From: Macrostomum lignano
Taxonomy: Eukaryota
Length of the DNA stretch: 64,000 bases
Assembly: GCA_002269645.1 (NCBI GenBank)
Contig: NIVC01001238.1
Span: 124,001-188,000 of the forward strand
Direction of reading: 5' to 3'
Part shown: positions 42,071 through 64,000 of the stretch, one piece after another
Position numbering within the stretch: the first letter of the stretch is position 1
How the letters are laid out: each line of letters starts with the position of its first letter
Made by a program: the position numbers and the translations under genes
The notes under the pieces: model-generated
Database searches by the model: none
Told to the model about the DNA's origin: nothing
The model's input: the letters and a program-made list of their open reading frames with translations, nothing else

Positions 42071-42661
42071 GTGATTGAGTGTATCAGTGCGTGCCTGCGT
42101 ACAGTACCCGCGCGCTTGTCTGTGCTCAGGTTTCAGAGGAATTGGATCAGTTCCGCTTGTGAGACGCTGTCGCCGAAAGCTTTGCAGCCCTCCTGCAAAT
42201 AGTATTAGCTTGTAATATTCAGGATGAAAGCCTTCCAAGTCTTCAATTAAAGCAAACAAATATAAATTAAGAGTGTCAGTGAACTCTGTGCTATTCATAC
42301 GAGTATTACCAAATTGTTGCCAAAAAATTATTTCCGAATATGGATTACAGATTTTTAGACGGCCTGTCAAATTTGGTTTGATTATTGGTAGGTAGCTAAT
42401 TAAAATCGCCCTGTGCATTTGGAAATGCCTCCACACTACTCACACGGAATCTAATGTGGTGAGTAGTATGAGTTTATGCAACTCTGCCGCACTTGCACTG
42501 CGGAGATAGGCGGCAGTGTAAAAAGGATAGGAGGGCGTAAAAGAGCCAGCTGAGATAGCCAATGGAAATAAGGGCCGGGCGTGGGGTGGGTGTGCGATTG
42601 GCTGGTTGGCGGGGTAATGAAACGCTTATTCAACTCTGCCGCACTGGGGAGGCAGGCAGGC

Positions 42662-42914
42662 AGCAAAGCAAAGAATCGGAAGGTTTTGGAATAGCAGAGT
42701 GAACAAATTAAAAACAAGGAAACGTCCACCTCAATTTGTGCCTGGCCATTGCAACTCCTGGGCGTCCCCCACTGTGCTTATCCTATAGCATGCCTATGCA
42801 ACTCTGCCGCACTATTTGTCAGTGCGGAGTGAAATAGATAAGAGAGAGAGGCTCTGGTCTTGAGTGTCTGCCTCTGGTGCTGCTAATAAATGAGCAATAA
42901 ACTTTGTAACGGGT
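42662..42914 (+). repeat. Left TIR core; imperfect inverted copy at 63643-63922
   Basis: For example aaacgtccacctcaatttgtgcctggccattgcaactcct...gcaactctgccgcactatttgtcagtgcggagtgaaatagataag is reverse-complemented at the right end. Confidence 0.95.
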
Positions 42915-43014
42915 TGTGTGGCTGACGCTGACGAGCAGCCGCTGCTTGATGCCGAATAAGGAAAAAAATGGGGTGGGTGCTCATTCTGACACCCACCCCA
43001 CTCCGCTTTGAGGG

Positions 43015-43022
43015 TATATAAG
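43015..43022 (+). promoter_or_regulatory. TATA box (TATATAAG) upstream of the PC4-like gene
   Basis: Canonical motif 84 bp before the ATG at 43106, preceded by an 11-bp perfect inverted repeat (42969-42979 / 42990-43000). Confidence 0.55.
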
Positions 43023-43105
43023 CCCCCGATTTTTAAATTCAACGGTAAATCTATTTTTTCTCGAATTCGATTTCACAAGTTTTTCGTATTGATTTTGTGT
43101 GAACT

Positions 43106-43805
43106 ATGGATATTAGTGAAGGTTACAGAGTGCAGGTGCAAGAGTTCGAAGGCCAGAAATACATTGCGATCAGGAAGTTTTGGTGTTCCTGGCTTCAACC
43201 TGAATGTGCAGCAGTGGACGAAGCTAAAGGACTTAAAGCGCTCCCTGGTGAAGTCGGCTCTGAATAACGAGGTCAAGGTCATCAAGCTGGGCTTCGACAA
43301 ATTTATTCAAGTCAAGGATGGCCTCATCTGGCTGAAGCGACTGCCTGAGGACTGCTGCGATGAATTTATGAAGCGCAACACCGTGCCGCTGTCTCCGAAG
43401 CTCTGGCAGAAGCTGTGGCAGACTTCGGACTGGATAGACCAGCAGCTATCAGAGCCCTACCAAGGTGCGGGGGCGAAGTACGAGCTGAGCTCATCCGAAG
43501 ATGAGGTCGAAGACGCCACCGTCATACTGCCAGTCAAGACTGAGCCTGCTGAAGGCGAGGAGGAGGTCCGCTCACCATCGGAGATGACAACCGACATCGA
43601 GGCTGTGACTTCCACACCTTTGGCCAGAGCCGGCACATCGACTGGGAACATCCCGGCGGAGGACACGGACCCGCAGCAGGATCCGGTGTGGTACCGATTC
43701 CGGGCTCATGCCGCTGAGGTGGAGAACAATCGGAAGCGGAAACTGCCATATCCTCTGCGCAGGCAGGAGACAATGAAGGTGTCTAAGCTGCGTTTTGAAG
43801 ACTGA
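43106..43805 (+). pseudogene. PC4/Sub1-like ssDNA-binding / transcriptional co-activator domain protein, one +1 frameshift (TTTT 43178-43181)
   Basis: Removing one T gives MDISEGYRVQVQEFEGQKYIAIRKFGVPGFNLNVQQWTKL, aligning with the PC4 core as recalled ([35 protein letters not shown]); acidic C-terminal tail. Confidence 0.7.
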
Positions 43806-44157
43806 GCTGGAGGTTGGATGAGACTGATGAGACTCAAAGGATAATTCAGTTTGGTTTGCCTTTGTCTAATTTTATTCAGCTAAGTTAAGTTTTGACAATT
43901 GTCGTAACCGTTTAGTCTTACGAGCTATTTATTCAGGTGTTAACAAAACAAATTTATACTTATTTGCACTACTCAATGCTATTATTTCCTGCAATCTTCT
44001 TTTCAAGATTACCAACTGTTCGCAGTCCCCGAGTTAAAAAATAACTCGTGTACACTGTATGAGTTTAATATTGGAATAAAAAAATGTCTTTAAAAATGCC
44101 AATCGTTGCTCTTAAGAAAAACATACCTGTGTACATCTGGTTCTTTTTCATTTGAGG

Positions 44158-45223
44158 ATGGAAAAAATTTACTTTGACCCACAACAGCCGGCTAGTTTTT
44201 CTAGTGCTTCTAAACTGTTGAATGAAGTTAGGAGAAGAGGAGATCCCATATCCACTAAGAGCATAGATCAGTGGCTCAGTGAGCAGCCAGTGCACACCCT
44301 ACACAAGCCAGCTAGAAGGCGATATCCAAGGGCCCCAATCATAGTGCGAGCTATCGATGATCAGTGGGAACTTGACTTGGTAGAAATGATTCCATTCGCA
44401 AAGTATAATAAAGGCTACAAATATATTCTCACATGTATTGACGTACTGTCAAAGTGTGCTTGGGCCAAGGCACTGAAAAATAAATCTGCTGCAGAAGTGA
44501 AGTCAGCATTCGAGAGCATACTGAGAAGTTCAAAGCGCCAGCCACGCACAGTTCGCACAGATCAGGGGAAGGAATTTATCAACTCCACTTTCCGTCAATA
44601 CTGCATTGACAGAGGGATTAGCTTTCCCAACTAACAGCGAGCAGAAGGCGGCTGTCATTGAGCGATGGAATCGGACTCTGAAAAGTAGAATGTGGCGCTA
44701 CTTCACCTACAAGAGCACACTGCACTGGCTTGATGTGCTGCCTAAGCTGGTAAAATCCTACAACAATACTTACCACAGAAGCATCAAAATGGCACCCACT
44801 AGTGTCTGCAAAGAGAATGAATCTGAAGTGTGGATGAACCTGTACGGTGGAAAAGCAGCCGAGACTCTAGAAAAATTAAGGAAGCCTAAGTTCGCTGAAA
44901 ACCAGTCAGTGAGAATTTCCAATGCTCCACGGCTATTCAAAAAGGGATACAAAGCGAGCTGGAGTGAGGAAGTGTACATCGTGGTGAGCAGAGCCCCAAA
45001 ACATTATCCCTACATGTACAAGATTAAATACATGCGGGGGGAAGAGATTCGAGGACTCTTCCATGAGCATGAGCTGCAGGCTGTCCCGGACTCACAGCGG
45101 CTGTATGTGATTGAGAAGATCCTGGAAACGGAGAAGCGGAAGGGAAAGATTCGCTATCTGGTGAAGTGGGCCGGCTACGACTCGACTGGCTGGGTGGATG
45201 AAAAAGACTTAAGAAAGGTTTAG
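44158..45223 (+). pseudogene. Maverick retroviral-like (DDE) integrase with C-terminal chromodomain; frameshift near 44625
   Basis: WELDLVEM..YILTCIDVLSK, VRTDQGKEF, KAAVIERWNRTLK, YNNTYHRSIKMAP; C-terminus YVIEKIL...GKIRYLVKWAGY...WV. Confidence 0.92.
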
Positions 45224-45260
45224 CTTTGGCACATCCCTCATCATAAAGTTTATCATTATA

Positions 45261-46070
45261 ATGCGAACTATTTTGATTAACAGTGAGCATGCTGAAGGTA
45301 CTCCTAGTGACTTTAATTTTTACCTGCCTTCACCTATTTACTTGGATCGAAATGTGGACTATGAGGCAGGTCTGGCTGAAATCCATCTGCCTGCTGCATG
45401 GTTCAATGTTGACGAGCCTTACTGCTTCACTGTCTCAGATGGAAGAGAGCATGAGGCCCTGGTTCTTCAACCCGGACGCTTTGCTAGAGTGGAGGAGCTG
45501 GTGGAGCGTTTGAATCAGCTGCTGGCCAACTCTGATTCGCTGTTCTTTGATGCAATGAGTGACAGGGAGTTTGAGATGGAGGCTGATGAGTCCGGCCTGA
45601 TGGGGCGTAGTGGCAACAGGGAATTCGGTACGAAGTTTGAAATCCGCAACTCACGAACTGTGGTGCACAACAACACTGCGAGAGCAGAGCTGTTTCTTCC
45701 ATCCAGCAAAATTCTGCATTGGCTGGGATTTAGAAACCAGGCTGTGAAAATCCAGTCAGGGAGCCGCATGTCCGAGCACTGCATTGGCTGCCCGCGCACC
45801 AGCTTAATCAATGTGCACTGCAGTATCGTTGAGTCAACTAATTGCAACTTGGGCTCCCTGTTGAGAACAGTTGGAAATGAAAGCCGGCATTGAATGGGCA
45901 ACTATCAAACAAAAATATTTAAGAAAACAATATTCTTCCCGATTTAACAAATCAGTCTTCTTCACAGCATTCGAGTTCAGCTGCGTGAAATCTATGGTTG
46001 CCCACTGATTGCCCAGACACTCAGCCCTGTTCTGCTCACAGTTCAGATTCGGGAGAAACGCATTCAATGA
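45261..46070 (+). pseudogene. Minor capsid (penton) protein; in-frame stops at 45891 and 45945
   Basis: SDFNFYLPSPIYL...YEAGLAEIHLP..WFNV N-terminal signature; the same frame continues ..IFFPI*..IRVQLREIYG..VLLTVQIR to TGA at 46068-46070. Confidence 0.8.
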
Positions 46071-46456
46071 ACTACCAGCAGCTGATCCAGCAATATTCGG
46101 GGGTGAGGACAGGACACGAAAAGCCTGCACTCTATGGCTGTGGGAGCTTTCCGGGGATCATGACATACCAGCCTCCTCCAGCGGCTACATCATCATTCTC
46201 AACGCATAGCAATGTCAGGCGCAAAAGAAATACTAAAGCAAGTCCGAAACGATTGAAGAAGAAGAAGTACACCCGAAAGGCAACTGGTAGAGATCGCACC
46301 AATAAGAGGTGCAATGAAAGAAATCCGAGCAAGGCTAGTAGGAAAAAGCTTAAGAATAGGAAGACGAAAGCAAAGAAGAATGCAGCAGGCGGAGGAAAGC
46401 GAAAGCGAAAAGTCAGCAAGAAAACTGTGAAACGCGTGCTCGACTATCTGTCATAG
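46067..46456 (+). CDS. Highly basic Lys/Arg-rich protein, putative DNA-condensing core protein
   Basis: ATG overlaps the penton stop (ATGA); C-terminal half is K/R-rich; lies between penton and MCP. Function is inference. Confidence 0.6.
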   Translation: MNYQQLIQQYSGVRTGHEKPALYGCGSFPGIMTYQPPPAATSSFSTHSNVRRKRNTKASPKRLKKKKYTRKATGRDRTNKRCNERNPSKASRKKLKNRKTKAKKNAAGGGKRKRKVSKKTVKRVLDYLS

Positions 46457-46458
46457 AC

Positions 46459-47739
46459 ATGGCTTACGGATTCAATCCCAGACTTGATTTATTTAAGACG
46501 CCTGTTCTACAAACCTGCATTGAAAAAGCTACTTATGTTGATTTTCACCCAGTTAATTCCATTACTGCAAACTCCCCCATTGAATTTGACTGCCACCAAT
46601 CTGCCGATGAATACACAGATCTGCTTAATACTTTTCTTTATATTCGCTGCCGCCTTGTGAGACTGGATGGGGGTTTGCTGAGGGAGGATGTTCGAGATGG
46701 AGATGGCATCATCACCGAGAGCAGAGACAGTGACGTGCACCCAGAAAACTTTGTTTTGTCTACAGCCTTCTCAGATGTAATTGTGAGCATTAACCAGCGA
46801 GTGGTGTCTGGTGGAGACCAGCTCTATCCCTACCATGCGTACTTTAAAGCACTAATGAGCTCATCTGATGCCCAGCAACTAAAACTTTACCCAGCTGGCT
46901 TCCTGGAGCCGGACTCTGCAGCTGAAGAGCACACGGAGAGCCACAGGGAATCCCGATGGATGGAGTATGCGGGGCCCCTCTTCAGCGATGTTTTCCAGTG
47001 CCCAGTGTTTCTGCTAAACAATCTGCACTTGCACATCAAACTGGTCCCCAGCGATGGGGCCTTTGCCATCAGAAGAACCCCGAATGTAAACAACGCGGCT
47101 TATCGCATGGAAATCTCTCACAGCATTCTGCATCTTCGCCGAGTCAAAGTGGTGCCTCACATCAGCCTGGCTCACGAGCAGGGGCTGACAAACCAAAATG
47201 CACTGTATCCCATCGAGCGAACTGAAATGCAGAACTTCATCCTACCCCAGGGCATTCAATCTAAAAACATTGAAGGATTCACTCATGGAAAATTGCCGAA
47301 GTTCATCATGCTGGCCTTCGTGAGCCACCGAGCATTCAACGGTCATCATCACGCGAATCCGTTCCAGTTCCAGAGCTTCAACCTCAGCCGGTTGGCTCTA
47401 AAGAAAGGTGGAGAGACCGTGTGCCACGGCGCCTTCACACCTGAAAACAATTCCTTTGTAAGAGAATACTTGCACCACATGAAAAGCTGTCAATCTGCAA
47501 GCAATTCGGTCCCGTGGATCCCCTACCAGCTCTTCTCCAACAACAACACGGTGTTTGCATTCGATCTCACACCAGAGGGAGCGGCTCTGTGGTAGGGACA
47601 GAAGGAGGGCAACCTGCGGCTGGAGATTCGCTTCCGACAGGCTCTGGACGAAGCGGTGTCCCTGATCTCTCTGTGCCTGTATGACTCGCTGATTGAGGTC
47701 ACCAAGCACCGGGAGCTTTTGCTGGACTATTCCTCTTAA
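46459..47739 (+). pseudogene. Major capsid protein (double jelly-roll, Polinton PY type); in-frame TAG at 47593-47595
   Basis: LDLF..P.LQT.IE...VDFHPVNS....PIEF..Y.DL.NT.LYI; NPFQFQSFNL; AFDLTP; the frame continues GNLRLEIRF..AL.EAV....YDSLIEV. Confidence 0.92.
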
Positions 47740-47744
47740 TTGGC

Positions 47745-48254
47745 ATGGACGCAATTCAACTACTTAATCTCGCCAGAAAATTTTTGTCTTGCCGAAAATT
47801 TCTCATCATTACTTTACATTCACGCTATAAAAATTTTTTGCCTTTGAGTCTAAAAAGAAAATATCGATCAATTTCCCTCGAAAATAAGTTTGTTTTTGTT
47901 CTACTACAGCACAATGGTTCATTTGGTCATTGGGTGGTGTGCTATGTTGGACAAGGAAATTGCATTGAGCTGTTCAACTCCCTCGGCTGGGAACCTGAAA
48001 TTTTATCTGTGGTTTATAATTTGTTTCGGGAGATTAAAACAACTGGCTTTTGGCTCCGAAGCAATAAAAACAGATTTCAATGTGCTAACTCTAATAAATG
48101 CGGAATGTTTTGCATCTATTTTGCTTATCAAAAGTTTCTGTTCAATCGATCATTTGAGGGGATTTTGAAGCATTTGCATGCTAATGAAAAAAATCATTTG
48201 AATGATAGAATCTTACAGAGGTTTGAAGCCAACTTAAGAAAAAGATGTGCGTGA
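47745..48254 (+). CDS. Adenain-like cysteine maturation protease
   Basis: GHWV, ELFNSLG (Asn where FDS is usual), FQ...SNKCGMFC. Confidence 0.85.
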   Translation: MDAIQLLNLARKFLSCRKFLIITLHSRYKNFLPLSLKRKYRSISLENKFVFVLLQHNGSFGHWVVCYVGQGNCIELFNSLGWEPEILSVVYNLFREIKTTGFWLRSNKNRFQCANSNKCGMFCIYFAYQKFLFNRSFEGILKHLHANEKNHLNDRILQRFEANLRKRCA

Positions 48255-48480
48255 TTTCTAATATTTATGCATTAGACATGGCAGAAAAGCGAGTTTGCTA
48301 CGATATCCGCCTCAGGCAGGGAAGCTGCATGATTGTCTGCGGGCCCACCAATGCAGGAAAAACAACCTTTGTCAAACACCTGATCCAGTACAGAGACGTC
48401 ATGTTTGATGTGAAGCCTGGCAGAGTTCTGTGGTACTATGGGATCTCACAGGCAGGCCATGCAGAACTGAGCAGCCTAGG

Positions 48481-48858
48481 TATGACGTGAGCGAGTTCGA
48501 GATGTAGTTAGCGATTAATTAATTATTAGTTATTTATTTATTAGTTAGCTAGTTCAATTATTAGTAGTGTTGACACGCAGGGTACGAGACAAAACGCCGC
48601 GTTGAGGAGAGTACAAAAACGAGCTCGAGGCAACATTTAAATTGGCGGGGAAATCCGATTCATTTAAACCTAAGATGTCTATCAAAAAAGTAATAATAAC
48701 TTGGACTTAAATAAATAAAACATGAAGTACATTTTTTTCTAAATAAATTACATTAAATTAATAGCTGGGGAACCTGAAAATTAATCAACTACAATAATTT
48801 TAAGTAATAAAAACTCAGATAGAAACTAAAAAGTTAAGATGCTAACGACGTCGTCACA
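48481..48858 (-). mobile_element. 378-bp solo-LTR-like insertion with 5-bp TSD CTAGG
   Basis: Ends T[A]TGACG...CGTCACA (TG..CA with one change, 7-bp inverted ends); CTAGG at 48476-80 and 48859-63; AATAAA on the minus strand. Confidence 0.75.
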
Positions 48859-49089
48859 CTAGGTGTGCAGCTGCGCCAGGGATTTCCCACCAACATCGAG
48901 GCAGCACTTAGGCCCTATGACCTGGTTGTTTTCGATGACTTAATAGAGGAAACTTCAAACTCTGCTTCAATGCAAAATTTTTTCACAGGAATCGCACATC
49001 ACTTGCCGTGCTTCTTGGTGATGCTGACTCAGAATATATTTTTCAAGGGAAAAGAGTCGCGAACAATGAGCTTAAATGTAATGTACTTA

Positions 49090-51237
49090 CAACAACAACA
49101 ACAAAATACGCTGTCAGGATGGCAAAAGTCTGCGTCACAGGGCGCGCTTCATGGCTTGGGCGCGAACAAAGGCCGCGCCACCGGCAGTGTCCGGGGCGCC
49201 GGCGTCAGCCAGCAGACAGTCGACATAACGCCGAGTTCGCGCTTGACCTCGCCGGTAGGGTGCCTGCAGCGTGAGCAGCAGCACCTCCTGCACCAGCTGT
49301 GGGCAGTACGACTCGGCGCGGATGAGATGGCCTGCGAGCTGGAGTCGCCGACGGCGCAGTAGATCACTTGGACGTGGCAGGCCAGCGCGGCGATAGAGTG
49401 CCGCGTTGGTGACTCGCTCGACGCCGATGTTGAAGGCGGCGCGCAGCAGGCCAGCGTGCGCCGCATCGACTTGCTGTTCGAGTGAGTCCGTCAGCGTCCA
49501 GGTCTCGGCGTTGTACAACAGGACGGTCTCGATTACCGCCTGGAACAGTGCCGCCCTCTGGCGGTCCGGTAGGGCCTCGGACTGCAGGACTGCCCTCACA
49601 GAACGAAAGGCAGCCCAGGCAAGCCCGCGGCGGCGTCGCAGGTCCTCGCGAGCTTCTGGAACCAGACCGCCGAGGTAGACGAACTGCTGACATCGCGGGA
49701 GTTCGGTCGCCTGCCCGTCAGCGCCTCGGCAGAATATTGCAGCCTCGATGTCGTCCGGCACGCAGAGCACAACGGTCTTCTGCGTGTTGACCACCAGGCC
49801 GACACTCGCCGCAACGGCAACTAGCCTGTCCAGCTGCCGTTGGGCGCCCTCGACGGTCGAGGACAGCAGGGCGAGGTCGTCGGCGTAGCCAAGCACGCTG
49901 AGCCGCTTCTCCGGTTGACGTCGACCCACGCGTCGCTGCAGCAGAAAACCATCGTCGTCGGTAGGAAGAGCAGTCCGCAGCACCCAGTCAAGCACCAGGA
50001 CGAACAGGAACGGCGCCAGCGTATCTCCCTGAAGTACTCCGGAGGATGTCTCAAAGGAGTCCGATAGGCCATCCGGTGTTGTCACAGCAGCTGTCGTATC
50101 ACGGTACATCGCCATGATGGCGGAGATCAGCTGCTTAGGCACGTTGTACGCACGGAGCACCATTGGAAGCACGGCTCTGACAACCGAGTCGATTGAAATC
50201 AATAAAGATTAGAATCAGGATCGACTGGCGAATCCGCGCCTCCTCGATGACTCGGCGAAGAGCCAGGATCTGCGCCACTGTGCCGCGAAGGGGCCGGAAC
50301 CCGTTCTGCTCTGGGCGCAGGTACGGATCCAGCACGGGCTGCAACCGCGAAAGCAGCATCCGGTTGAACAGCTTCGCTGCACAGGACTGAAGGCAGATGT
50401 CTCGATGGTCTTCAAGCCTAGTGGTGCCCGGCTTCTTTGGAACAGCGACGATGTGCGCCGTGGTCCATTTGTTGGGCGCCGCCTCACCGAAGAGCACGCG
50501 GTTCATCACTCTGGCGACCTCAGCGGCCACACAGGGGATGCGCAGCGCCTCGATGGGCACCTCGTCCGGACCCAGCGCTTTCCCGCCCGGTGACTGCTGG
50601 GCGAGCTTGACAACGTCGGCTGCGTTGACTGGGGCTACGCTGAAACTCTCCTCTGCCGGCAACGGCGTCTCCGGCGGCAGCGTCAGACTGTCTGGCAGCG
50701 GGGGTGGCGGCGCGTTAACGATGGCGGCGAAGAACTCGCGCAGCTCAGCGTTCCTGCGCTCGTCCGGAGTGTCACAGCCAGGTTCAGCGGATTGCGCCGC
50801 TTTCGCCCCGTCAGAGCGTTGATGGCGGACCAGGCCACGCGCCCTCTGGCATCGGGCCCAGCGGCAGAGACAGCCTGAATGGCGTCATCGACAGCCGCTT
50901 GTTGGCGCTGCAGGTAGACAGCCGCCAGAGCTGCCTCTGCCTCGCGGGTTGGTCGCCTGCTCAAGCGGAGCCTCTCCAGATCTTCCCTCGCTGCCTGAAT
51001 CGCAGGGTCGTCCTGCCAGACCGGCTGTCCACGTTGAGCCGGTTGCATCATCGGGACTGCTTGCTCCGCGGCGGTTCTGACTGCAGCGCACTCTTCCGCA
51101 TACTCGGCACTTCCACGCTTGTCGCCCAGCGCGGTGTTAAAGGCGCTAGCAAAGCGACGCTGCGTATCGGTGGCTCTGAGTGCGCGGTAGTAGCGCCGCG
51201 GTGGCCGCTTCGGCGGACGGTAGAGCGGATCGCGAAG
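49090..51237 (-). mobile_element. 5'-truncated RTE-like LINE with a (TTG)n tail and 7-bp TSD GTACTTA
   Basis: RT motifs GPDEVPIE, QNGFRP.RGT, GVLQGDTLAPFLF, YADDL, FVYLG; (CAA)n at 49090-49104; TSD at 49083-89 and 51238-44; frameshifted. Confidence 0.88.
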
Positions 51238-51506
51238 GTACTTAGCTATCTTGAAAAACCCCAGAGACCAGCTGCAGATTTCAGCACTGGGCAGGCAGTG
51301 CTTTACAGAGAAGCCCGGCTTTCTGCTGTCAGTGTTCAAGCACGTGACCGCGCAGAACAGGGGAGCTTACCTGTTCCTAGACTTTCACCGATCAACTCCC
51401 GATGAGCTGCGAGTGCGGGCCAGAATTCTGCCCAACCAGCGACCCCATCTTGTATTTGCTTAAGAAAGTGAAGCTTGTTTTTTTATCAGCTATTGTTTTC
51501 ATCGCT

Positions 51507-51857
51507 ATGGAAGTGCTTGATTCACATGCAAGTCTTTTTGCGGTTCTTGCGTCACCTAAATTTACCGTGCGCTTCAAGCGACTGTTGATAAAAAATTGTC
51601 CAAAACAAGTGCGTTGTTTTCTTGTCGAGGCCTGCCATAATCTCATACAAAACAATCTGTCGTTTTCGCTCGATGAAAAAGCTGTTCTTGCAAAGTCAAA
51701 AGAGATAATTCGAAAAATTACTCACAAAAGAAGAAAGACAAACTTGTTGAAGGCTGGCTTCATTAAAATACTCCTGATTCTGCTTAAGCTGGTAAAGAAG
51801 AAGAAGCAAAATGAACAAATTTTCAGAAATGGTTCTGATTCCCAAAGCAGAGTATGA
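51507..51857 (+). CDS. Conserved Maverick-type basic ORF with an amphipathic C-terminal segment (KAGFIKILLILLKLVKKKK)
   Basis: LIKNC......LVEACHNLIQNNL.....EK..L.K.K.IIRKI resembles a small Polinton virion ORF as recalled; function not established. Confidence 0.55.
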   Translation: MEVLDSHASLFAVLASPKFTVRFKRLLIKNCPKQVRCFLVEACHNLIQNNLSFSLDEKAVLAKSKEIIRKITHKRRKTNLLKAGFIKILLILLKLVKKKKQNEQIFRNGSDSQSRV

Positions 51858-52560
51858 GATGTTGATGCAGAATTTGAAGCCGAATGAGAATAGCACTGAC
51901 GCTAACTTGAAGCAGGCTCAGAAGAAATGCGATGATATCTTGTAGTGTGCTTTGTGGGCGGCCGTAGGCCGCGTACAAAGTGTGTTAGGGGTGGCGGGGT
52001 GGCGTCTGCGTTGGGGGGGGGGGGGGTTGTCGCGGGGCAGCTAGCTTTTAACCCCCAACTTGTGCTCTGCTCGCGGTGTCCAAAGTTTGCTGGCCAAACG
52101 CAAGCACGCTGGAAAAGAAGGAGCACGCAATATTGAAGCCAAGTTGATGAAAACAGAGACACCACAGATGAGCACCTGGGAAGAGAAGATCAGCAAGTCG
52201 GTGCCACAGAAATTCAAAACCAGGGCTCGCAGTCTATGGACGATCGTATCCACCAATCCAGAGCTGATTCGAGTTTGTGAAAACGAGGAGGTGGATACAT
52301 ACTGGACTTGATTCAGCACACAGTGAGGGATTCGCCATGTGCGCGTGAACCAGTTGGCTGGAATGAGTTCATCGATTTGCTGCAGCAGAAAAAGCTTAAT
52401 GTTCCGCTTTCCGCTGTTGGTAAATCAGTTAAAAAGAAAATGGCAACCAGCAGAGGGAGTGAACTGGAGAAAGAACAGGCGAGTCTAGTCAAGGGGTACG
52501 GGAGCAACACAGCCTGGCTGAAACTGCCCGGAAGAAAAGTAAATATAAGAAGGTGGACTG
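51811..52560 (+). pseudogene. Conserved Maverick-type ORF of unknown function, interrupted by a 147-bp insertion and a frameshift
   Basis: MVLIPKAEY start; ISKSVPQKFKTRARSL; DLIQH..R..PVGWNEF..LL....NVPLSAVG. Removing 51943-52089 restores DDILLAKRKH in frame. Confidence 0.6.
51943..52089 (-). mobile_element. 147-bp non-autonomous insertion with a subterminal hairpin (Helitron/Helentron-like)
   Basis: TTG on both sides; stem ctttgtgggcggcc-gta-ggccgcgtacaaag a few nt from one end; no TIRs. Confidence 0.45.
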
Positions 52561-52589
52561 ACTCCGAAATTTCTAGGGAAAGCTGCATC

Positions 52590-53063
52590 ATGAACTACAT
52601 TGACTTCCAAGGATTCCCGTGCAACAGCACAAGCAAAAATTTGTTGTGAAAGAGTTGGCAGTTGTTCAAGTCAGAGCGGGAAGCTACCGAATTGCTCACC
52701 ATGTGTACGCACCTCCGTATCCATGGGAGAGAGTCTCCCCTGACATGCGAGTTTGCTACAGACAGCTATCAAAGAGTGTGCACCAGTTTAAGTGGAACGA
52801 TGGAACCCGTCCGTACATGGAACTGGCGGAAGACATTCTGAGGATTGCCAGTGGTCCGATCTGGACAAATGGGGAAAGGAAGTCTATTTTCCTGACTGAG
52901 CTGCTTGGTAGACAGGTTTATAACCTAGAAGATTTGGGAGCACCCTCGACTGAAGATTCAGATACTGGCTGCGCAGTGAGAAATTCATTGCTGCACTACA
53001 GTTGGCTTAAGCCAAAGTTCTGCATCAACTTAAGAAGCGAGCAGTGTCCGTGGCACAGGGGCA
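52590..53063 (+). pseudogene. Maverick-type ORF with D-x-Q-G-F motif, putative DEDD/DnaQ-like nuclease; frameshift in an A-run near 52635
   Basis: MNYIDFQGF + FVVKELAV, PPYPW, H..KWNDG..PY, VYNLEDLG.P, C.WH. Fold assignment is inference. Confidence 0.5.
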
Positions 53064-53105
53064 GTGAATTTGGCAGAAGATTTGGTGAAGAAGTCAAGGA
53101 TCGAA

Positions 53106-53693
53106 ATGAGTCCACCTGCAGCTACAGCCCTAAGAGTGACCAATCTGGTTGGCGGAGTGGATCTGAGACTGGATGGTGGCAGGGGCGCCCAGCTGCCTCT
53201 ACGGGAACTGGCTCTCAGCATGGCTCATGTGATCTACCGGCCCGTCTGGCCCCGGGTGCTCATCAAGCGGATGCGGAGTCCCAGAGTGACTCTGCTACTC
53301 TACCCTACTGGACAACTGAGCATCTGTGGCGCCAAGACCCAGACCGCAGACGCCAAAAGGGCTGCCCGTCGCTCCGTGGCTATGCTGCATCGGAGAGTGC
53401 CGGATCAACTGCTGCCTCATTAAACAATTTGTGTTCGAATTAAAACTATTACTGCTCATGGACGTTTTAAGCTCCAAAATGCGCTACCGCTTACTGAACT
53501 TGTTAAAGTTTTGCCCAAAGCCCAGTATGAACCAGAAACATTTTCAGCTTTAGTTTGTCAACTTAACTATTGTAAATGCTTGCTTTTTCATAATGCTTCT
53601 TATATTCTAAGTGGGGCGAAATCTCTGCGTATGCTAAAATTCGACAGTTCTTCCCTGTTTCGCTCTGTTAACACACTTATGCAACTAAAATAA
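53106..53693 (+). pseudogene. TATA-binding protein (TBP)-like gene with both core repeats; one in-frame TAA at 53421-53423
   Basis: Repeat 1 RVTNLVGGVDL..LPLRELALSMAHVIYRPVWPRVLIKRMRSPRVTLLLYPTGQLSICGAK..AKRAARR parallels TBP [59 protein letters not shown]. Repeat 2 LPLTELV..AQYEPETFSALV...LLFHNASYILSGAKS parallels SSYEPELFPGLI..LLIFVSGKVVLTGAK and lies in the same frame. Confidence 0.85.
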
Positions 53694-56600
53694 AGCACAA
53701 TAATTATCCGTCTTTAATCTTCCGACAAGAACTAGCAGAAAAAAAACTTTAATATGCCTTGTTTACTAGTTTTATTTTTTGGTTACAAAAGATGCTAAAA
53801 AAATTGTCAGCAAACTGCAACACAGCGAAAATTAATACTAATATTAAAAGAACATAGGAAAAGAAAGAAAATGAAAATGCTAACACTCATAAAAGTTAAG
53901 CAAGTTTTGAAAAAGCAATGGCACGTTAAAGAAAAGTACTATAGCATTTATGCGGACAACATGTACATTGCGTTCCAAAAACCAAAATGCAAAGCTGAGC
54001 AAATGCTCAATTCAAAGTACGCACTAGTCAAATGTATGCTATTGCATCCTCATTTGCTTGGGAGCCTGATCAGCAGCTAGTTGAGGTGCTTCTCGATTGT
54101 AACGGCGGCAGCTGTGGCGGCAGGGGTCTCTTAGAGCAAAGTGCCCATACGGAAGACTTTGGTTTGGGGAAGTCCACGCACGCTTGTCCTCCCATACAGT
54201 CAGGGCACGCTTCTGTTGCTCTAAAGTGACTACTCTGTGTCGTCGGCTAGCGATTCTGCGTGTCAAGACGCGAAGCTCCTTCAAACTGGCAAACGCCTGC
54301 ATGTAGTCATCGTGTGTGATTTCTGCCCGCAGCACACTCTTCTGAAAACCTTTGGCTGTCTTCTTCCCTCCAGACTCGGCCTTCATCGAGTATAGTTTTG
54401 GTCTCAAAAGGATCCATTCACGATGGGGGTTGCCTGCAGATTCGTCCTTTATGCAGCCTAACTTGGCTTTTAGATCATCGGATCGGAATTGATGGTCGGC
54501 CGGGAAGTTTGAGGTATCTAGCAATCGCTGGCGAATGAGTTCTGGTAGAACAGCACTCTGAACATCGATGTTTTTAAAGCACAGAAAGAAGGAATCGGTG
54601 TCCCCACTGCATAGGGAAACTCCTTGTTGGAGAGCAAGATTCTCAAATGTTGGCTTTAGCTTTTCATAGTACAATCGGTACATCGCCAGCTTAGAGTCAT
54701 CTAAAACACATTGACCAACGTAGATTGGGCGGTCAAGAGTGACTGATGTCTTGAAAAATTGAAAAACTACTAAGTCTTGAGTCACAATCGTAAAGTCCTT
54801 AAGATTCGGACGCGATGAATAGATTTCGGACTGCTCCTCGTTGTTAGAAATTCGAACACTGAGCCTCTTCCGTACGTTTTCCATCGTTTTGCCGAACAGG
54901 GAGTTATTCTTCAGTTTGTAATAGTCTTTTTCGAATTCCGTTGTAGCCACTGAGCGCTTTTTGCTGTTTCTGTCAATGTAGGCTTGGAAAATTGCAGCTT
55001 GACAAAATCGAATAGCTCTTCGGACCTTTTTTAGTCGCATACCGTGACGCAAGTAGAACTTCAAAATTCAGAAATACACGACGTAGGATTCCTTGTCATG
55101 ACATGTGAGTAAAAGTTTCACACAGCCTTTGTACGGCTCGTTGCGAGTGTTCAATTCGCCCCAAAGACGTTTCATGAATGGCGGAAACTCTTCGAGCTTA
55201 GGCGCGGCCTTCTCGGGGGCAAATGGCAAATCTTGTGTCTGCGTGTGGATTACATCTGGATATTCCAGATCAACCTCAAATAGGTAGCCAACTGGACCAT
55301 CGTCATCCAATTTAAGTAGCTTCTCTTCTGTCCATTCACACAGTTCTTCTTCACTAAGCCACTCAAAGTCACTGACGGGTCGTTTTTCGGACAGCGCTTG
55401 CCCGTAGAGATTATTCATGTCTACGGGGAGCAAAGAATTTGTCTCGGCATTGGAAGCTGCGCTTGATGAATCTGCACCATCTGACGACTGGTGACTGGTG
55501 ACTGGTCTGGCAGTAACATGATGAAACGAAACGATTCCTCCACGAATGCCAAGCTCAAAGAGTCTGTACTTCTCAGCATCGTCGAGCAACTGGAGCGGTG
55601 TTGGCGCGGATTTCAGCGCGGAATCAAATGATAGACCTGGTGTAGTAAAGTAGTGGGCCGGGTCAAGACCGTCATCATGGAGACTCAAACGGCGAAAGTT
55701 CTGAAAAACATCGGCAAGTTGACGGATGTCAAGCTGCAGGTAGGCAAGCATGTAGTCGTGCAAATTTTTGCTTCGATCTGCTCCCAGGCTTTGCGCGCAT
55801 GAGCATAGCTCTCCTCACTGCAAGCTGTCTTTGTCAGAGAGTTGAAAAACTCTTCTCTGCTCGGAAGTTCGGTCACTGCCAAATTCGCGGGGGATTTGAC
55901 GAAATCATAGGGAAAGACTCCCTTGATAGACAAAGTTTCATTAGTTAACTTTGGAAAGCAGCTTTTCATTTGCTGAGTGAATTTTCTGTCCTGGAGAGGT
56001 AAGTTGCGAATCAGTTTGTCTAGACCCGCGTTTAAAAACTAGAATGAATCGAGGAACTGCAGAGTGAAGAAAATTGTTTTCTTTTTGCCTTTCGGTAGAG
56101 TGATTTCGGCGATTGGGAAATCTACTCGAAGAGACACATAGCGTTCAGAAGTCTGAAGAATGACACTCAGCTTCCAGTTGTTCATATTTCCTAACGCTGT
56201 TGAAAACAGGAGGTGCATGTCATAATTTCGGAGATTATGGAAGAAAATCGGCAGAAATCTTCGGCGAAGTTGCGCTAATTTGTTACACCGTGAACATGCG
56301 GCGCCTTTGAATTTTCCAGTCAGATGATCATGATCATAGTGCTTGTCATTAGTGTCAGTAAACTGTCGATCACAGTAATGACAGTTGGAGGATTCACTGA
56401 AGATTTGACTAGCAGTAGTGTCTGCTTCAGCCGTTTGGTAGCTGTGCCTTCTGTTCCATTCATAGACTTCTCGAGCCACGCGTTCCGGCTCATGAAGAAA
56501 CGTTTCCATACACTCGAATGGATTCGAACTGGAGACCAACTTCACCTGACCTTGATCCTTGAGTGGTGGTCCCTTCATGCCTTCACGAGCAACGAGTAGA

Positions 56601-56700
56601 AATCCACCCGCTGCAGGCAGATGCTCGGTAATAAAGACAGTTTTGCCAGTTACCATGCCCTCATCTGGTCTTGCTTGTACATGACTGCTGCTGCTGCTGC

Positions 56701-59700
56701 TTCTTCTTTTTTTCTTCTTCTTCGGGGCGCCTCCGTTCCGGCTAGGCCGATCTGGAGGGGGGCGTGGACCCCGAGGGGAGCCGCCCCATGCTGCGTAGTA
56801 GTCTGACGATGGCCTCCGGGGACCCCATCAGGTCGCTCGGGACCAGGCCGCTTCTGCTCCGGAAGTGGTCGCCGCGGGGGCAGTGGAGGAGCAGATGCTC
56901 AGCCGAGTCCTCCGCGCCGCAATCGGGGCAGGCGGGGGACTGTTCCAAGCCCAGGCAGTGTCTGGTGCTAAAATTGATGGTGCTGGCGCCGGACCGGAGC
57001 TGGTTTACCAGGACCTGGAGGCGTCTGGGGAGGCTGGTCGGCGGCTGCAGTCTCGGCGGCAGGACTCTGGCGTCTAGCATTCTGCGAGAGCGACGAGCGG
57101 CTGCCCTTGCCGCGTCAAGCTCGATCGGCACCGCCTGTTGGTCGAGCCCGGCCGCGTTGGCGGCGGCGCGGTCGGCCGCCTCGTTGCCGGCAACCCCGCA
57201 GTGGGATGGCACCCAAGCGAAGTGAACAGGGCGGTCCATGGCGATCAGGTTGAGGAGTTTACTCCAGCAGTCCGCGGCAACTGAGTTTTGCTGGCACAGG
57301 GGTCCGGCGCTGAGCGCCTGGATGGCGCGAAGGCTGTCCGTGGCGATAGTTATGGCGCCCGTGGGCGGCGCCGGGTAGTGGGCGATGTCTAAGGCCTCCC
57401 TGATGGCGCAGAGTTCTGTGGTAAAGCTGCTGCAGAGCGCACCAGCCGCGACGAGGCGGGCGTCGTCGTCCGGTAGCCACTGGGCGATCGCCGCTCCGCC
57501 TCCGTTCGTGAAACCGCCAGCCGCGGATCCGTCCGTCCAGATGACGTGTCCGGAGGTCTCCAGTGGGCCGACGATTTGCCTGGCGATGTTGGCTTTCATG
57601 GCCGCCGGCATGTCGCGGCTGATAACCTTGCTGAGCGAGACATCGAACTGGACGCGGCCGGCCTCGGCCACTTCCCACGGTGGGGGACCGAGGGGTCGGT
57701 GGGCCCGGGGCGTCCTGTCCAATACCTCGCGACAATCCAGCTCCCGCGCCGCGCGCCTCCAGCAGCCGCGGAATTGACGACGGGCGTCGAGGTCCCTGTC
57801 CGGGAGGCGCTGATTGACCCCCTCTGCCTGGTTCTGCCGGTTGGCGGCTTCGAAGGCGCGGTTTTTGAGGCGCGGGGTGGTGACCGCTGTCGCGATGCTC
57901 TGCGATGGCGATCCGTCCGGGAGGCGAGCCATCCGCTCTCTCAGCGTGCACGCGCGTTCGATGGCAACGTGGCTGAGGGGCGGCAGCTCGGCGATGCTAA
58001 GGAGATTTTCAGTGCGGGCCGTGGATATGCAGCCAGTAATCAGGCGCGCGCATGCGTTCTGCTGGCGCTCGACTAGGAGCCTGGTGCTCGGTGCCGCTCC
58101 CGCAAGCCATACGCCGCTGCCGTAGTCCGCCACAGCTCGGATAGTGGCAACGTAAACGGTGCGGAGGATGCTCTGCGTCGCACCCGTTTGCCGGTGTGCG
58201 ATGGCCTGCAGTGGGCGTCTTCTGGCAGCCATGCGGCGACGGATATCTTTGGCGTGCTCCGCGAACCCAAGGTGGTCGTCGAACTTAACGCCGAGGAAGA
58301 CGGGGTTGGACTCGAAACGAAACTCGCTGCCGCCGATGCTGAGTTCGACTCTGGTCTTGCCGCGGTTCTCGTTGGGGCACAGCGTGAAAGTACTGTAACT
58401 GCACTTCCCAGTGCTGAGCACGACCTTGTTCTGGTCGCACCAGCGGGCCACGGAGTCCAGAGCCGGTTGCACGATGTGCCCGCAGCTTTCGAGGTCCGTA
58501 TGGCGCGCTAGGATGGCCGAGTCGTCGGCATACAGACTAATCTCGGCTTCCGGCGATGCTTCCGCGATGGCAGTTGGCAGGTCGTTAACGTAGACCAGCC
58601 AGAGCAGAGGGGCGATCACCGAGCCTTGGGGCAGGCCTTCCCGGAAGATGCGCTCTCTGCTGAGGCTATTGCCGAATCGGACGCGCGCTCTCCTGTCGCT
58701 GAGGAAGCTGTTGGTCCAGCGCAGGACGCAGGCGGGGACTCCCAGCTTCTCGAGCTTGCAGATCAGGGACTTCCGCCACACCTTGTCATAGGCTCTGCTG
58801 AAGTCGAGTAAACAGAGGATCGCTCTAAGCGCAGGAGTCTCTTCCAGCCCATCGAAGATAAGCTGGGCGATGCGGGCGATCTGCTCTTCGCACGAGCGTC
58901 CTTTGCGGAAACCAGCTTGGACTTTGCTGAGAGTGCCCTTGGATTCCAGCAGGAAGTTCAGCCTTTGGTGCGCCAGCCGTTCCGCGACCTTGGCAATGCA
59001 ACTGGTGAGGGCGACGGGGCGATACGAACCCGGGTCGTCAGCCGGTTTGCCGCGTTTCGGGATCGGGATGATAATCGCCCTGCGCCACTGGTGGGGGCAG
59101 TGTCCGCTGAGCCAGGCCTTGTTGATCAGGTCAAGTAGTCGCTGCTCGGTCCGTTCGGGGAGACGCTTGAGCATCTCGTTGGACACTCCGTCCGAGCCGG
59201 GGCTCTTTCTGGATTTCAGCGACCTCATGGCCTGCTTAAGTTCCACGGCGGAGAAGGCGCCACAGATCTGCTGCTTGTGGTCGGGCTCGCAGCAGCGCGC
59301 TTTGGTGGCGGCGTAGGCACACCTGTTGACCCCGCGATCCGACCTCCTGCGCTCCACGCGAGACACGTCCGCGTGCAGGGTGCAGAAGGCATCCGCTTTC
59401 CCCTTGTCCGTGACCGCAGTCCTCTGCCGGCGGCATCTGATCTCATCGGCCGGGATGACAAGGGCCGCGTTGGGGGGGGGGGCGGCGGGGGCTCGCCCCG
59501 CATCGCCCGGGCCAGGCCGAAGAGGTCGCTGTTGACGGACAACTCCGCGACTCGTTCGTCCCAGAAGCGGAGCTTCTCGACCTTGATCGTCTCATCGGCG
59601 CGGCGTCTGGCGAGGTGGTACGCCGAGATGTCCTCCACCGTCTTGGTCTGCTCGGCCTTTTTCCGCGCGGCGCTGCACTGGTTGCAAGCGGCGGCACACG

Positions 59701-61571
59701 CTTCGGTCCAGAAAGGTTTGCCGGTGTTGCGACACGCGCCGCGCGGGATACTGCCGGTCGCTGCTCCGAGGATGATGTCGCAGAGCTGTTGGTGGTCCGC
59801 GTCCGTGCTCGATTTCTGCGCGGTGGTGATGCCTTGCAAAGTCTCCTCCTCCGCGTCCAGTCGGGCCGCGTAGGACGTCCAGTCCGCTTTCGCGTAGCTC
59901 CACTGGGCCTGTCGTTGGGGACGTTTGGCCTGCTTGTCTCTGGAGAGGGTAAAGGTAATAGGCAGGTGGTCGCTTCCGAGGTCCTCGGAGGTGCTCCGCG
60001 ACGTCCTGACGTAGGCGGCAAGATCACCGGAACACCAAGTGATATCCGGGCAGCTCAGGCCGCCTGTCGCCGGGTTGGTCCGCGTGTGGGCATCCTCGCG
60101 GTTGCCAAGGTGGAGGCCCCGGTCGCAAGCCCACCCCTCGATGCTGTCTCCTCTCTCGTCCTCAGGTTGATGGCTGTCCCATTGTCCATGGCCATTGAAA
60201 TCGCCGGCAATCACCGTGCGGGGCGCGACCGGTATGTCTGACCAGGCTGGGAGCCAGTTGTCCTCCGCGCGCTGGTTGCTATTGGGCGGGGCGTAGACCG
60301 CCACCAATTGGATCTGGCCAACAGCAGCCGGGCAGATGGTCACCGCCGCGTAGTCGAGCAGGCCGCCCCTGCTGACTTCAGGGTTCTTGAAGGGGACGTC
60401 ATCGCGAACCAGGATCAGCACTCCTCCCCTCCCCGTCGGGCGCTGTTTCTTTTTGCAGTTTTTTGGCTTTCGGCCGTTCGGGGCAGGTTCGGCGTCGCCC
60501 TCAGGTTGAGGAAGGGGCGGCGGGTCGGGCCGGCTGGCTTCCCCGGCGGGTCGGGGGGCTTGAGCGTTCCGGCGCTGAGCTGAGGACTGGTTCGCGTGCC
60601 TACAGCACGGGCCTTCGAATGGCACTGAGTATTGCTTAACGGTAGCGAGGCCGCTGCATTTGAGGTGGAGCCACCCGCTGCAGCTGGTGCACTGGACGCT
60701 GTAGCTGTTCCTGCGGATGACCTTGCTGCAGTCCGAACAGTGCCACAGACCTGCTTTCTTGTTGGCCGGTCCGCTCTCCGCCACTCTCCGCGCTTCCGGC
60801 GGGTCCGGGGGAGTGCGGACCCGGGGGGTCGTCAGATGGGGCAGGCCACGGGAGGTCGCGGTTGGAGCAGGCGGAGCGGCCACTTCTGCAGCCGTTGCAC
60901 CAGCCGGTCTTGTCCTGGGGCCATCGGAGGCGGCACCTAGGACGAGTGAGGCGGCGGGTGGTCGGAGCCTCCTCTCCCGCAGGCATTCCATCGTTAGTTC
61001 TCTGGGTGGTATTCGCGGTGGCGGCGGGCTCGGGATCGAGTTTGGCCTCGCCGTCTTTCCAGGCCGCCACGTGGTAACCCTGTGGCGGGTGGAAGGCCGC
61101 TCCTGGGCGGAGCTTGGTCTCCTGGAGCAGGACAGCGACGGGTTGGGTACGGGCAAGTCTCGGTACCGTTGGGACCGAACGGTAAAGCGGACCGATACCC
61201 CGATCGGGCCGGCTGAGGGTTCGGTGCAGGAGGGCCATCAACCTCCTGTGGCATGCGACTGCGTCCACGACGCGCCCCTGGACTCCGGAGACTGTACCTG
61301 GTAATTCGTCCTACCGGATGACGAAATGTCGCTCTTTACGGGGATGCTGCGAAAATTCCAACCGAGTCAACGACGACCTTCCGGCCGCCCCCGATGACAA
61401 CGCCAACCTGCATCGGGTTCTCCGTCTACGCGGAGGCGACAGTAACGTTACAGCTCCGTCCCGCCAGACCAGAAGCAGCAAAAAGCGAGGAAGGGGACAC
61501 AGGTCCGGCTCAGAGCTCCAGGTCCTCCAGTTCAATTGCAACGGACTGCAGGCCCGCCGCACGGAGCTAGC

Positions 61572-61572
<1 letters not shown>
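56701..61572 (-). mobile_element. Near-full-length Ingi/I-group LINE (APE with PHD insert, RT, RNase H, CCHC), (GAA)n tail, 5' ~410 bp inverted; inserted in a (CTG)n tract
   Basis: LQETKL, GGVLILV, YAPP, AGDFNGH, GSDHLPI; QAGFR, LDFSRAYD, GLPQGSVIAP, YADD; WTDGS, TELCAI, TDS, WVPSHCGVAGNE.AD; CPDCG....EHLLLHC. APE motif I (LQFNCNGL) is on the opposite strand at ~61525-61550. Confidence 0.9.
61230..61332 (+). ncRNA. Predicted HDV-like self-cleaving ribozyme at the LINE 5' end
   Basis: P2 gcgac(61255-59)/gtcgc(61328-32); P3 gcg/cgc around L3 UCCACGA; P1 3' strand gcccct then GG for P1.1; P4 tccgg/ccgga; J4/2 CGAAA with candidate catalytic C61322. P1 5' strand (gagggc) has one mismatch. Confidence 0.55.
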
Positions 61573-61604
<32 letters not shown>

Positions 61605-62987: not shown

Positions 62988-63551
62988 TCAAGCTGAGTTC
63001 CCTTCCTGCACTACCGCCGCCAGTGTCGCTTCCTGCACTGCCGCCGCCGGTGTCGCTTCCTGCACTGCCGCCACCGGTGTCGCTTCCTGCACTGCCACCG
63101 CCGGTGTCGCTTCCTGCACTGCCGCCGCCGGTGTCGCTTCCTGCACTACCATCGCCGGTGTCGCTTCCTGCACTACCACCGCCGGTGTCGCTTCCTGCAC
63201 TGCCACCGCCGGTGTCGCTTCCTGCACTACCATCGCCGGTGTCGCTTCCTGCACTACCACCGCCGGTGTCGCTTCCTGCACTGCCGCCGCCGGTGTCGCT
63301 TCCTGCACTGCCACCGCCGGTGTCGCTTCCTGCACTACCACCGCCGGTGTCGATCAGACTGGAACCCTACTAGCACAATCTTGCTTAGTGTTGTTGGTGT
63401 CGGTTTCAGAGAGCCTATCGAAATCACTCTCCGAGTAGTCTGCCCCGGAACTTGATTCAGACCAATTATCTTCGCTCTCTGATTCTGACCAGCAGTCACA
63501 ATCGGACTCTGAAAACTCGCTTGAGTCCTGGTCTGCTCTCTGTCCCTGCAC
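62988..63551 (-). pseudogene. Acidic low-complexity ORF with VQEATPA x17 (21-bp repeat ~63005-63350), one in-frame stop
   Basis: ORFs 63354-63551 and 62988-63341 are the same frame separated by TGA; reading frame through the repeat is uncertain. Confidence 0.35.
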
Positions 63552-63642
63552 AGTGAAAGTGCGGCAGAGTTGAACAACTGTTTTTAGAGCTTATCAACCT
63601 CGCCTCCATTTCAAAACCCCACCCTTTCCACTCAAGCCCCGC

Positions 63643-63922: not shown

Positions 63923-64000
63923 ACAGAGTTGCATTAATGCGGCAGAGTTGAACAACTGTTTTAGAGCTCACACCTATCTGTCCCTGCACAGTGAGAGTTG

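What the first reader, a model, noticed from the sequence alone, without database searches (positions are those of the whole stretch)
48476..48863. Solo LTR that forms an exact spliceosomal intron in the packaging ATPase
Seen: a 378-bp TG..CA-type insertion with TSD CTAGG creates a donor AG|GTATGA (48480), a branch-like GCTAAC (48841-46) and an acceptor CTAG|G (48862). Splicing 48480-48862 removes 383 nt, the element plus exactly one TSD, and restores the pre-insertion sequence agc cta ggt gtg cag (ELSSL-G-VQLRQ) with no scar. Established: TE-driven intron gain uses AG/GT in the TSD or termini, and known introners are mostly DNA-transposon-like. Inference: an LTR-derived scarless intron inside an endogenous virus gene, which could have left the ATPase functional until the later LINE hit. 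The polypyrimidine tract is weak.
Basis: partly seen in the sequence, partly recalled or inferred. Interest (0 to 1): 0.75.

Follow-up and report, generated by a model that had tools for sequence, protein, structure and literature searches.

The report
Solo Gypsy LTR inside Maverick ATPase
A leftover piece of a retrotransposon landed in a gene of a decayed virus-like element and happens to be bordered by splice-like letters; nothing shows that it is really cut out as an intron, and such retrotransposon-made introns are already known.

Summary
The insertion is real: a 378-nt solo LTR of a Ty3/Gypsy family (full-length parents about 8.3 kb, tRNA-Gln primer site), lying antisense in the packaging-ATPase gene of one Maverick copy and of its twin locus; 28 of 28 other copies examined lack it. 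The GT..AG geometry is as described, but about 3.5% of LTR insertions per strand have it by chance; 3 of 20 family sites do (P 0.07-0.16). Against 32 host introns the donor is weak but plausible; the acceptor is very weak (1 of 32 as low), and stronger acceptors and a rival donor lie nearby. The branch-like motif is an inherited LTR feature. Public contigs do show the 383-nt joint, but also in a probable DNA run, and they carry the letters of insert-free copies, so this is no evidence of splicing; the test could not exclude splicing either. Whether the LINE came later is unresolved. Gypsy and solo-LTR introns, and introners in integrated viral genes, are already published. Verdict: an ordinary nested insertion in a decayed Maverick; exact splicing unproven and probably minor.

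The parts
48481..48858 (-). Solo LTR of a Ty3/Gypsy family, TA-ended subfamily; its own sense is the window minus strand
   Evidence: parents have primer site to tRNA-Gln and a purine tract; AATAAA on minus strand at 48542 and 48538
48476..48480 (+). Left target-site duplication CTAGG; its last G gives the G of the candidate donor
48859..48863 (+). Right target-site duplication CTAGG; supplies the candidate acceptor TAG (48860-62)
   Evidence: acceptor score as low as 1 of 32 host introns
48477..48485 (+). Candidate 5' splice site (GT at 48480); weak but plausible
   Evidence: 2.0 bits, 6 of 32 host donors as low, top 3.9% of 11,524 decoy GT
48484..48492 (+). Rival donor GTGAGC at 48487, made by a base private to this copy and its twin (48489); out of frame. 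In-frame stop at 48488-90 if the insert is read through
   Evidence: (2.5 bits)
48841..48846 (+). Branch-like GCTAAC; part of the conserved LTR end, present in 30 of 37 family copies
   Evidence: CTRAY lies before 6 of 32 host acceptors vs 13.6% of decoy AG
48710..48811 (+). Four AATAAA hexamers on the ATPase strand inside the LTR (48710, 48714, 48742, 48806): possible premature polyadenylation
   Evidence: function inferred
48966..48989 (+). Best-scoring acceptor-like site of the region (AG ending 48988), 126 nt past the proposed one, in frame, beyond the Walker B-like motif
48278..48480 (+). Maverick packaging ATPase, first piece (Walker A)
   Evidence: weak P-loop hits, all under cut-off; Pox_A32 lead, 21% of cluster members
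48864..49089 (+). ATPase, middle piece (Walker B-like LVVFDD; label recalled)
49090..51234 (-). Non-LTR retrotransposon (RT) inserted in the same ATPase gene; shared with the twin locus
42462..64000 (.). Decayed Maverick/Polinton copy (runs on to about 64347): terminal inverted repeats, integrase and polymerase B in pieces, protease, capsid-like frame, a second LINE in the polymerase

Best explanation
A Gypsy retrotransposon inserted, antisense, into the ATPase gene of one Maverick copy and then collapsed to a solo LTR by recombination between its LTRs (shown: family, orientation, duplication, insert-free sister copies; inferred: the recombination step). Because every LTR of this type starts with T and ends with CA, any target ending in AGG (or a few other words) gives a GT..AG frame that spans the element plus one duplication; this site is one of the few percent that do. 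The gene is most likely simply disrupted: silent, or read into a stop 3 codons inside the LTR, cut at an internal AATAAA, or spliced to better rival sites. Exact removal, if it occurs, is a minor leak with no selected role, in a copy that is also broken by a LINE and that has many insert-free sisters.
For: Chance rate 0.035 per strand (0.024 with the family's C..G target bias); 3 of 20 perfect-duplication sites are scarless on one strand or the other, P 0.16/0.07, and 2 of 19 without the ascertained site, P 0.38/0.23. One such site (L080/84/103) is in AT-rich DNA with no open frame. Acceptor: 1 of 32 host introns scores as low under two models; 46% and 17% of 16,204 decoy AG score as high; rank 5 of 36 local AG; host uses CAG in 30 of 32. 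Branch-like motif is inherited (30 of 37 copies) and not enriched before host acceptors. None of the 5 letters private to this LTR improves donor, branch or acceptor; one makes a rival donor. The joint seen in public contigs stands in the probable DNA run too and carries non-window letters at 48916 and 48974 in all four runs. Same gene also holds a LINE in both copies.
Against: The donor is in the top 4% of decoys, and one host intron uses a similar GTATG start. Host acceptors are C-rich rather than T-rich, so the weak pyrimidine tract is not decisive (0.53, inside the host range 0.35-0.88). The host model rests on only 32 introns inferred from protein homology. The only other family insertion with long open frames on both sides (L005, 1 of 18 other sites checked) is also scarless on its coding strand, with both sites inside the host range (6 of 32 as low). 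Precise or near-precise splicing of such insertions is documented elsewhere (PMC12130899).
Confidence: 0.75

Rival explanations
1. The copy is transcribed and the spliceosome removes the LTR exactly at an appreciable rate, by luck: a neutral, young solo-LTR intron in a Maverick gene, with no effect on fitness because the gene is broken elsewhere.
For: Scarless geometry confirmed; donor plausible and 383 nt is close to the host median of 464 nt; a CTAAC lies 16-20 nt before the AG as in 2 of 32 host introns; the RNA test could not see this copy at all.
Against: Acceptor at the bottom of the host range, stronger acceptors at 48988, 48904, 48580 and 48818, rival donor at 48487, four AATAAA inside.
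Confidence: 0.18
2. The Gypsy family works as a low-level introner: its ends and C..G target bias make some exon insertions removable, and those are the ones that persist in coding DNA.
For: Both insertions found between long open frames (window, L005) are scarless on the coding strand; TA-started copies follow a G in 5 of 6 sites; Gypsy introner families are listed in PMC12130899 supplementary file 8.
Against: L005 lies in a 5'-truncated relic of a multicopy RPA-like gene whose first exon and 35 further residues are absent from the 20 kb examined, so selection for splicing is unlikely there; no insertion in an intact host exon among 19 sites; G excess not significant (Fisher p 0.16); 17 of 20 sites are not scarless on either strand.
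Confidence: 0.05
3. The insert or its borders are an assembly artefact.
For: None direct; the contig lay did not list a piece bridging either border (425 pieces not shown).
Against: Independently assembled twin contig has the same insert and borders with 1 difference in the LTR and about 1% divergence around it; clean duplication.
Confidence: 0.02

Closest known systems
LTR-derived introners, including Copia solo-LTR introns and Gypsy families (PMC12130899; passages, section 8, rows of supplementary file 8)
   Same: LTR element in an exon with GT and AG taken partly or wholly from the target duplication ('co-opt' classes; e.g. Papaver Copia fam1, 4-bp duplication; Gypsy families in Panicum, Xylariaceae, Polarella).
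   Different: Those are families of at least several annotated, spliced introns; here one site (two copies), no splicing evidence, in a broken gene.
Transposon-insertion model of intron gain at AGGT protosplice sites (PMC3443670, PMC11282704; passages)
   Same: Target duplication supplies AG|G and |GT so removal is scarless; the review itself notes it may be 'pure chance'.
   Different: Here the T of the GT comes from the element's first base, and the acceptor is TAG in a host that uses CAG in 30 of 32 introns.
Retrotransposon 412 in Drosophila vermilion; Tc1; maize Ds (titles seen in the reference list of PMC2586383 only; details recalled)
   Same: A mobile element in an exon spliced from pre-mRNA; recalled: 412 is Gypsy-type, antisense, spliced at cryptic sites near the LTR ends.
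   Different: Those were shown in RNA and are mostly imprecise (recalled); here untested.
Introners inside integrated giant-virus genes (PMC12130899 section 8)
   Same: Mobile-element intron candidates within endogenous viral genes.
   Different: Here a Maverick, and the gene is broken by a second insertion.
TARE1, tomato Copia family with TA-started LTRs (PMC3701649; abstract)
   Same: A G-to-A change at an LTR end propagated as a subfamily.
   Different: Here Gypsy, and the TA is at the U5 end read on the opposite strand.

Membership tests
Ty3/Gypsy solo LTR | Matches the paired LTRs of full-length elements | tested here: met
   92% to both LTRs of 4 of 4 paired elements, 8.2-8.3 kb, LTR pairs 99.5-100% alike
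Ty3/Gypsy solo LTR | Parent pol order protease-RT-RNase H-integrase | tested here: met
   L033
Ty3/Gypsy solo LTR | Primer-binding site and purine tract in parents | tested here: met
   4 of 4 parents; primer site matches tRNA-Gln genes, 3 of 3 loci scanned
Ty3/Gypsy solo LTR | One LTR only, flanked directly by a 4-5-bp duplication | tested here: met
Ty3/Gypsy solo LTR | TG..CA termini | tested here: not met
   One end reads TA; shared by 6 independent sites, a subfamily variant; precedent PMC3701649
Spliceosomal (U2) intron | GT..AG borders whose use keeps the flanking sequence unchanged | tested here: met
Spliceosomal (U2) intron | Donor within the host's range | tested here: met
   6 of 32 host donors as low; top 3.9% of decoys
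Spliceosomal (U2) intron | Acceptor within the host's range and best locally | tested here: not met
   1 of 32 as low; rank 5 of 36 local AG; small training set
Spliceosomal (U2) intron | Removed from RNA of this copy | tested here: inconclusive
   Joint belongs to insert-free copies; contigs do not resolve this copy even in the probable DNA run
Introner family | Several similar elements forming introns in unrelated genes | tested here: not met
   0 of 19 sites in an intact host exon; 2 between long open frames, both in broken mobile-element genes; census is a lower bound
Maverick/Polinton | Long terminal inverted repeats and about 6-bp duplication | tested here: met
   Repeats about 450 nt, 82-88% alike; 5 of 6 flanking bases match
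Maverick/Polinton | Retroviral-type integrase, protein-primed polymerase B, adenovirus-type protease | tested here: met
   rve over cut-off; DNA_pol_B_2 E 1.5e-5 and Peptidase_C5 E 5.5e-4, both just under cut-off
Maverick/Polinton | A32-like packaging ATPase | tested here: inconclusive
   P-loop hits under cut-off; Atlas lead to a Pox_A32 cluster; position and motifs fit (recalled)
Maverick/Polinton | Double jelly-roll major capsid protein | not tested
   378-aa frame at 46459-47595 has no Pfam match; no fold prediction run

The most novel reading that the evidence does not exclude
This Gypsy family is a latent introner in an animal-type genome: a TA-ended subfamily plus a C..G target bias turn a few percent of its exon hits into scarless introns, the solo LTR in the Maverick ATPase is spliced exactly and efficiently, and the second coding-site insertion (L005) is too, so a retrotransposon LTR became an intron inside a Maverick gene and could have travelled with it.
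Probability: 0.1. Interest if true: 0.5.

Novelty: new member of a known kind. Interest (0 to 1): 0.2.

Why it matters
As it stands it matters little: a nested insertion in a decayed mobile element. It does carry a practical lesson: in a multicopy family, a perfect GT..AG 'spliced' joint is produced by insert-free copies and appears in DNA, so allele-resolved reads are needed. If exact splicing were shown, it would be a very young, datable solo-LTR intron with 28 or more near-identical intron-less sister copies as controls, a clean case for asking whether target-duplication geometry alone is enough to make an intron; the kind of event is already published.

Tried and rejected
RNA evidence: no RNA holder listed on record (24 runs listed, kinds guessed); 4 of 24 runs laid, all contigs. 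No listed piece bridged an ATPase-LTR border and none carried the copy-private letters, but the probable DNA run lacked them too and 425 pieces were not shown, so this blank is not used either way. The 383-nt GT..AG joint was rejected as splicing evidence (present in the probable DNA run; non-window letters). Ordering LTR and LINE by the twin or by private divergence failed. The idea that TG was changed to TA at this locus to improve the donor was rejected (TA start at 6 independent sites). The idea that the true end is G-TA with a shorter duplication was weighed: it fits L003 but not L121, and is undecidable at this site. Second AGG site (L080/84/103): no open frames. L005 follow-up: no protein relative among longer proteins (weak), single copy at DNA level, truncated relic. 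Rows dropped: 3 LTR sites without a perfect duplication (L003/4, L081/82, L121) before the count of 20; 1 of 13 Prp8 and 40 of 60 dynein intron candidates for weak support; the second Prp8 copy was not used for training. Earlier scan notes: none found. Paper searches listed no report of a solo-LTR intron in a Maverick gene; only listings were seen for most hits, and supplementary files 13-14 and places 27-53 of 'Gypsy' in file 8 of PMC12130899 were not read.

Full report
What is there. The window is G000:C1238:124001-188000 of a 764-Mb eukaryotic genome (probably animal, inferred and not tested). From 42462 to about 64347 lies a Maverick/Polinton copy with terminal inverted repeats and a 5-of-6 flanking duplication, integrase, protease and polymerase B matches. 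Integrase and polymerase are in pieces, a LINE sits in the polymerase, and the twin copy has further breaks. The P-loop ATPase frame starts at 48278 and is interrupted twice: by the 378-nt element at 48481-48858 and by a non-LTR retrotransposon at 49090-51234.

The observation. Of 30 Maverick loci fetched (40 matches; 131 candidates, 40 scored), 28 have one CTAGG and no insert; 2, the window and a twin on C916, carry it. The twin shares host flanks, the LTR and the ATPase LINE at about 99% identity, lacks the polymerase LINE and has its own 4.9-kb insert in the capsid-like frame. The geometry is therefore scarless.

What the element is. It has 44 matches in the genome (69 candidates, 40 scored). 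Four pairs lie 7.8-7.9 kb apart and are full-length Ty3/Gypsy elements (protease-RT-RNase H-integrase) with LTR pairs 99.5-100% alike, a primer site matching tRNA-Gln genes and a purine tract. These features put the LTR's sense on the window's minus strand, antisense to the ATPase. The end that forms the donor reads TA, not TG; six independent sites share this, so it is a subfamily trait, with a precedent in tomato TARE1 (PMC3701649, abstract). Of 20 sites with a perfect duplication, 17 have 4 bp and 3 have 5 bp, with a C..G bias; 3 sites without a perfect duplication were left out.

Is the geometry more than chance? An element that begins with T and ends with CA gets a scarless GT..AG frame whenever the target ends in AGG, begins with GGT or contains AGGT: 3.5% per strand for uniform 4-bp targets, 2.4% with the family's bias, 3.9% for 5 bp. 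Observed: 3 of 20 sites on either strand (P 0.16 or 0.07), 2 of 19 without the ascertained site (P 0.38 or 0.23). One of them (L080/84/103) lies in AT-rich DNA without open frames. So a genome rich in LTRs will hold many such sites with no meaning.

Would the host splice it? I inferred 32 host introns by protein homology (12 of 13 Prp8 candidates, 20 of 60 dynein candidates). Host donors are mostly GTGAG/GTAAG; acceptors are CAG in 30 of 32 and C-rich. The candidate donor scores 2.0 bits (6 of 32 real donors as low; top 3.9% of decoys): weak but plausible. The acceptor scores -7.8 under a position model and -1.6 under a pooled model; in both only 1 of 32 real acceptors is as low, and 46% or 17% of decoy AG do as well. 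It ranks 5th of 36 local AG; the best (48988) is 126 nt further on and in frame, beyond the Walker B-like motif. A base private to this LTR creates a rival out-of-frame donor GTGAGC at 48487 (2.5 bits); none of the 5 private bases improves the proposed sites. CTRAY precedes 6 of 32 host acceptors against 13.6% of decoys, and the motif is in 30 of 37 family copies, so it is inherited LTR sequence with little weight. Four AATAAA lie on the ATPase strand inside the LTR, and read-through meets a stop after 70 codons. Against my reading: the pyrimidine content (0.53) is within the host range, the length suits the host, and the training set is small and not RNA-based.

RNA. Three letters near the site differ from all 28 insert-free copies (48149, 48916, 48974). 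Laying 4 of 24 listed runs (three guessed RNA, one probable DNA; all contigs) showed the 383-nt GT..AG joint in all four, and in each the covering contigs carry the non-window letters at 48916 and 48974 at full depth and run on past 49089 into LINE-free sequence where shown. The joint thus comes from insert-free copies and is no evidence for splicing. Because the probable DNA run does not show this copy's letters either, the test cannot exclude splicing.

Order of events. Both inserts predate the split from the twin. Private differences are 5 of 376 in the LTR and 9 of 806 in the LINE (p 0.78; comparison sets differ in size). The claim that the LINE came later is neither shown nor excluded. 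With at least 28 insert-free sisters, there is no evident need for this copy's gene (inference).

A second coding site. Among 19 sites checked, only the window and L005 have long open frames on both sides. L005 is also scarless on its coding strand, with a CAG acceptor and both sites inside the host range. This is the best support for an introner reading. But it interrupts a 5'-truncated relic of a multicopy RPA-like OB-fold gene (46 protein-level matches, relatives near an ISXO2-like transposase frame), where selection for splicing is unlikely, and it is a single post-hoc case at about 3.5%.

Comparison with what is known. PMC12130899 (passages, section 8, supplementary file 8 rows) reports LTR retrotransposons as about 12% of classified introners, Copia solo-LTRs that form functional introns, Gypsy families, splice sites co-opted from the duplication, and introners inside integrated viral genes. 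PMC3443670 and PMC11282704 (passages) give the target-duplication model. Splicing of 412, Tc1 and Ds insertions is cited in PMC2586383 (titles only). My six searches listed no solo-LTR intron in a Maverick gene, but this site is not shown to be an intron.

Verdict. Membership: Gypsy solo LTR, yes (variant end); intron, not shown and one defining test not met; introner family, not met. Most likely a disrupting insertion with chance splice-like borders (0.75); neutral exact splicing 0.18; introner family 0.05; artefact 0.02. Interest 0.2.

Noticed in passing
L005 (G000:C393:164251-164634): Solo LTR of the same family in a truncated RPA-like OB-fold frame; scarless GT..AG on the coding strand (396 nt, CAG acceptor), both sites within the host range. 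No RNA test possible.
   Followed up: partly
L080, L084, L103 (C10, C199, C3210): Internally deleted TA-started solo LTR with duplication CAGG, same splice-like geometry and better scores (donor 5.2, acceptor 3.2 bits), in AT-rich DNA without open frames; could be tested as a UTR intron.
   Followed up: partly
L001-L003, L028, L080, L081, L121: TA-ended LTR subfamily; follows a G in 5 of 6 sites (7 of 16 for TG-ended; p 0.16) and 3 of 6 sites have imperfect or no duplication, which may reflect integration with a non-canonical end.
   Followed up: partly
L161-L173: Multicopy two-exon RPA-like OB-fold gene (46 protein-level matches, several identical), lying next to an ISXO2-like transposase frame in at least two loci; carrier element not identified.
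   Followed up: partly
L112-L114, L134-L153: Host 3' splice sites are C-rich and G-poor rather than T-rich, CAG in 30 of 32, with no clear branch consensus.
   Followed up: partly
window 39200-42000: About 125 tandem copies of a 21-nt unit forming a 901-aa open frame just left of the Maverick.
   Followed up: no
window 31331-35206: Another Gypsy pol frame (1291 aa, minus strand).
   Followed up: no
window 56697-61592: LINE with RT and RNase H inside the Maverick polymerase, absent from the twin, so younger than the duplication.
   Followed up: partly
G000:C916:78607-83478: Twin Maverick has a private insert of about 4.9 kb in the capsid-like frame at window position 47344.
   Followed up: no
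L158:2593-5491: Frames resembling another Maverick-like element (integrase-like, by eye) near L005.
   Followed up: no
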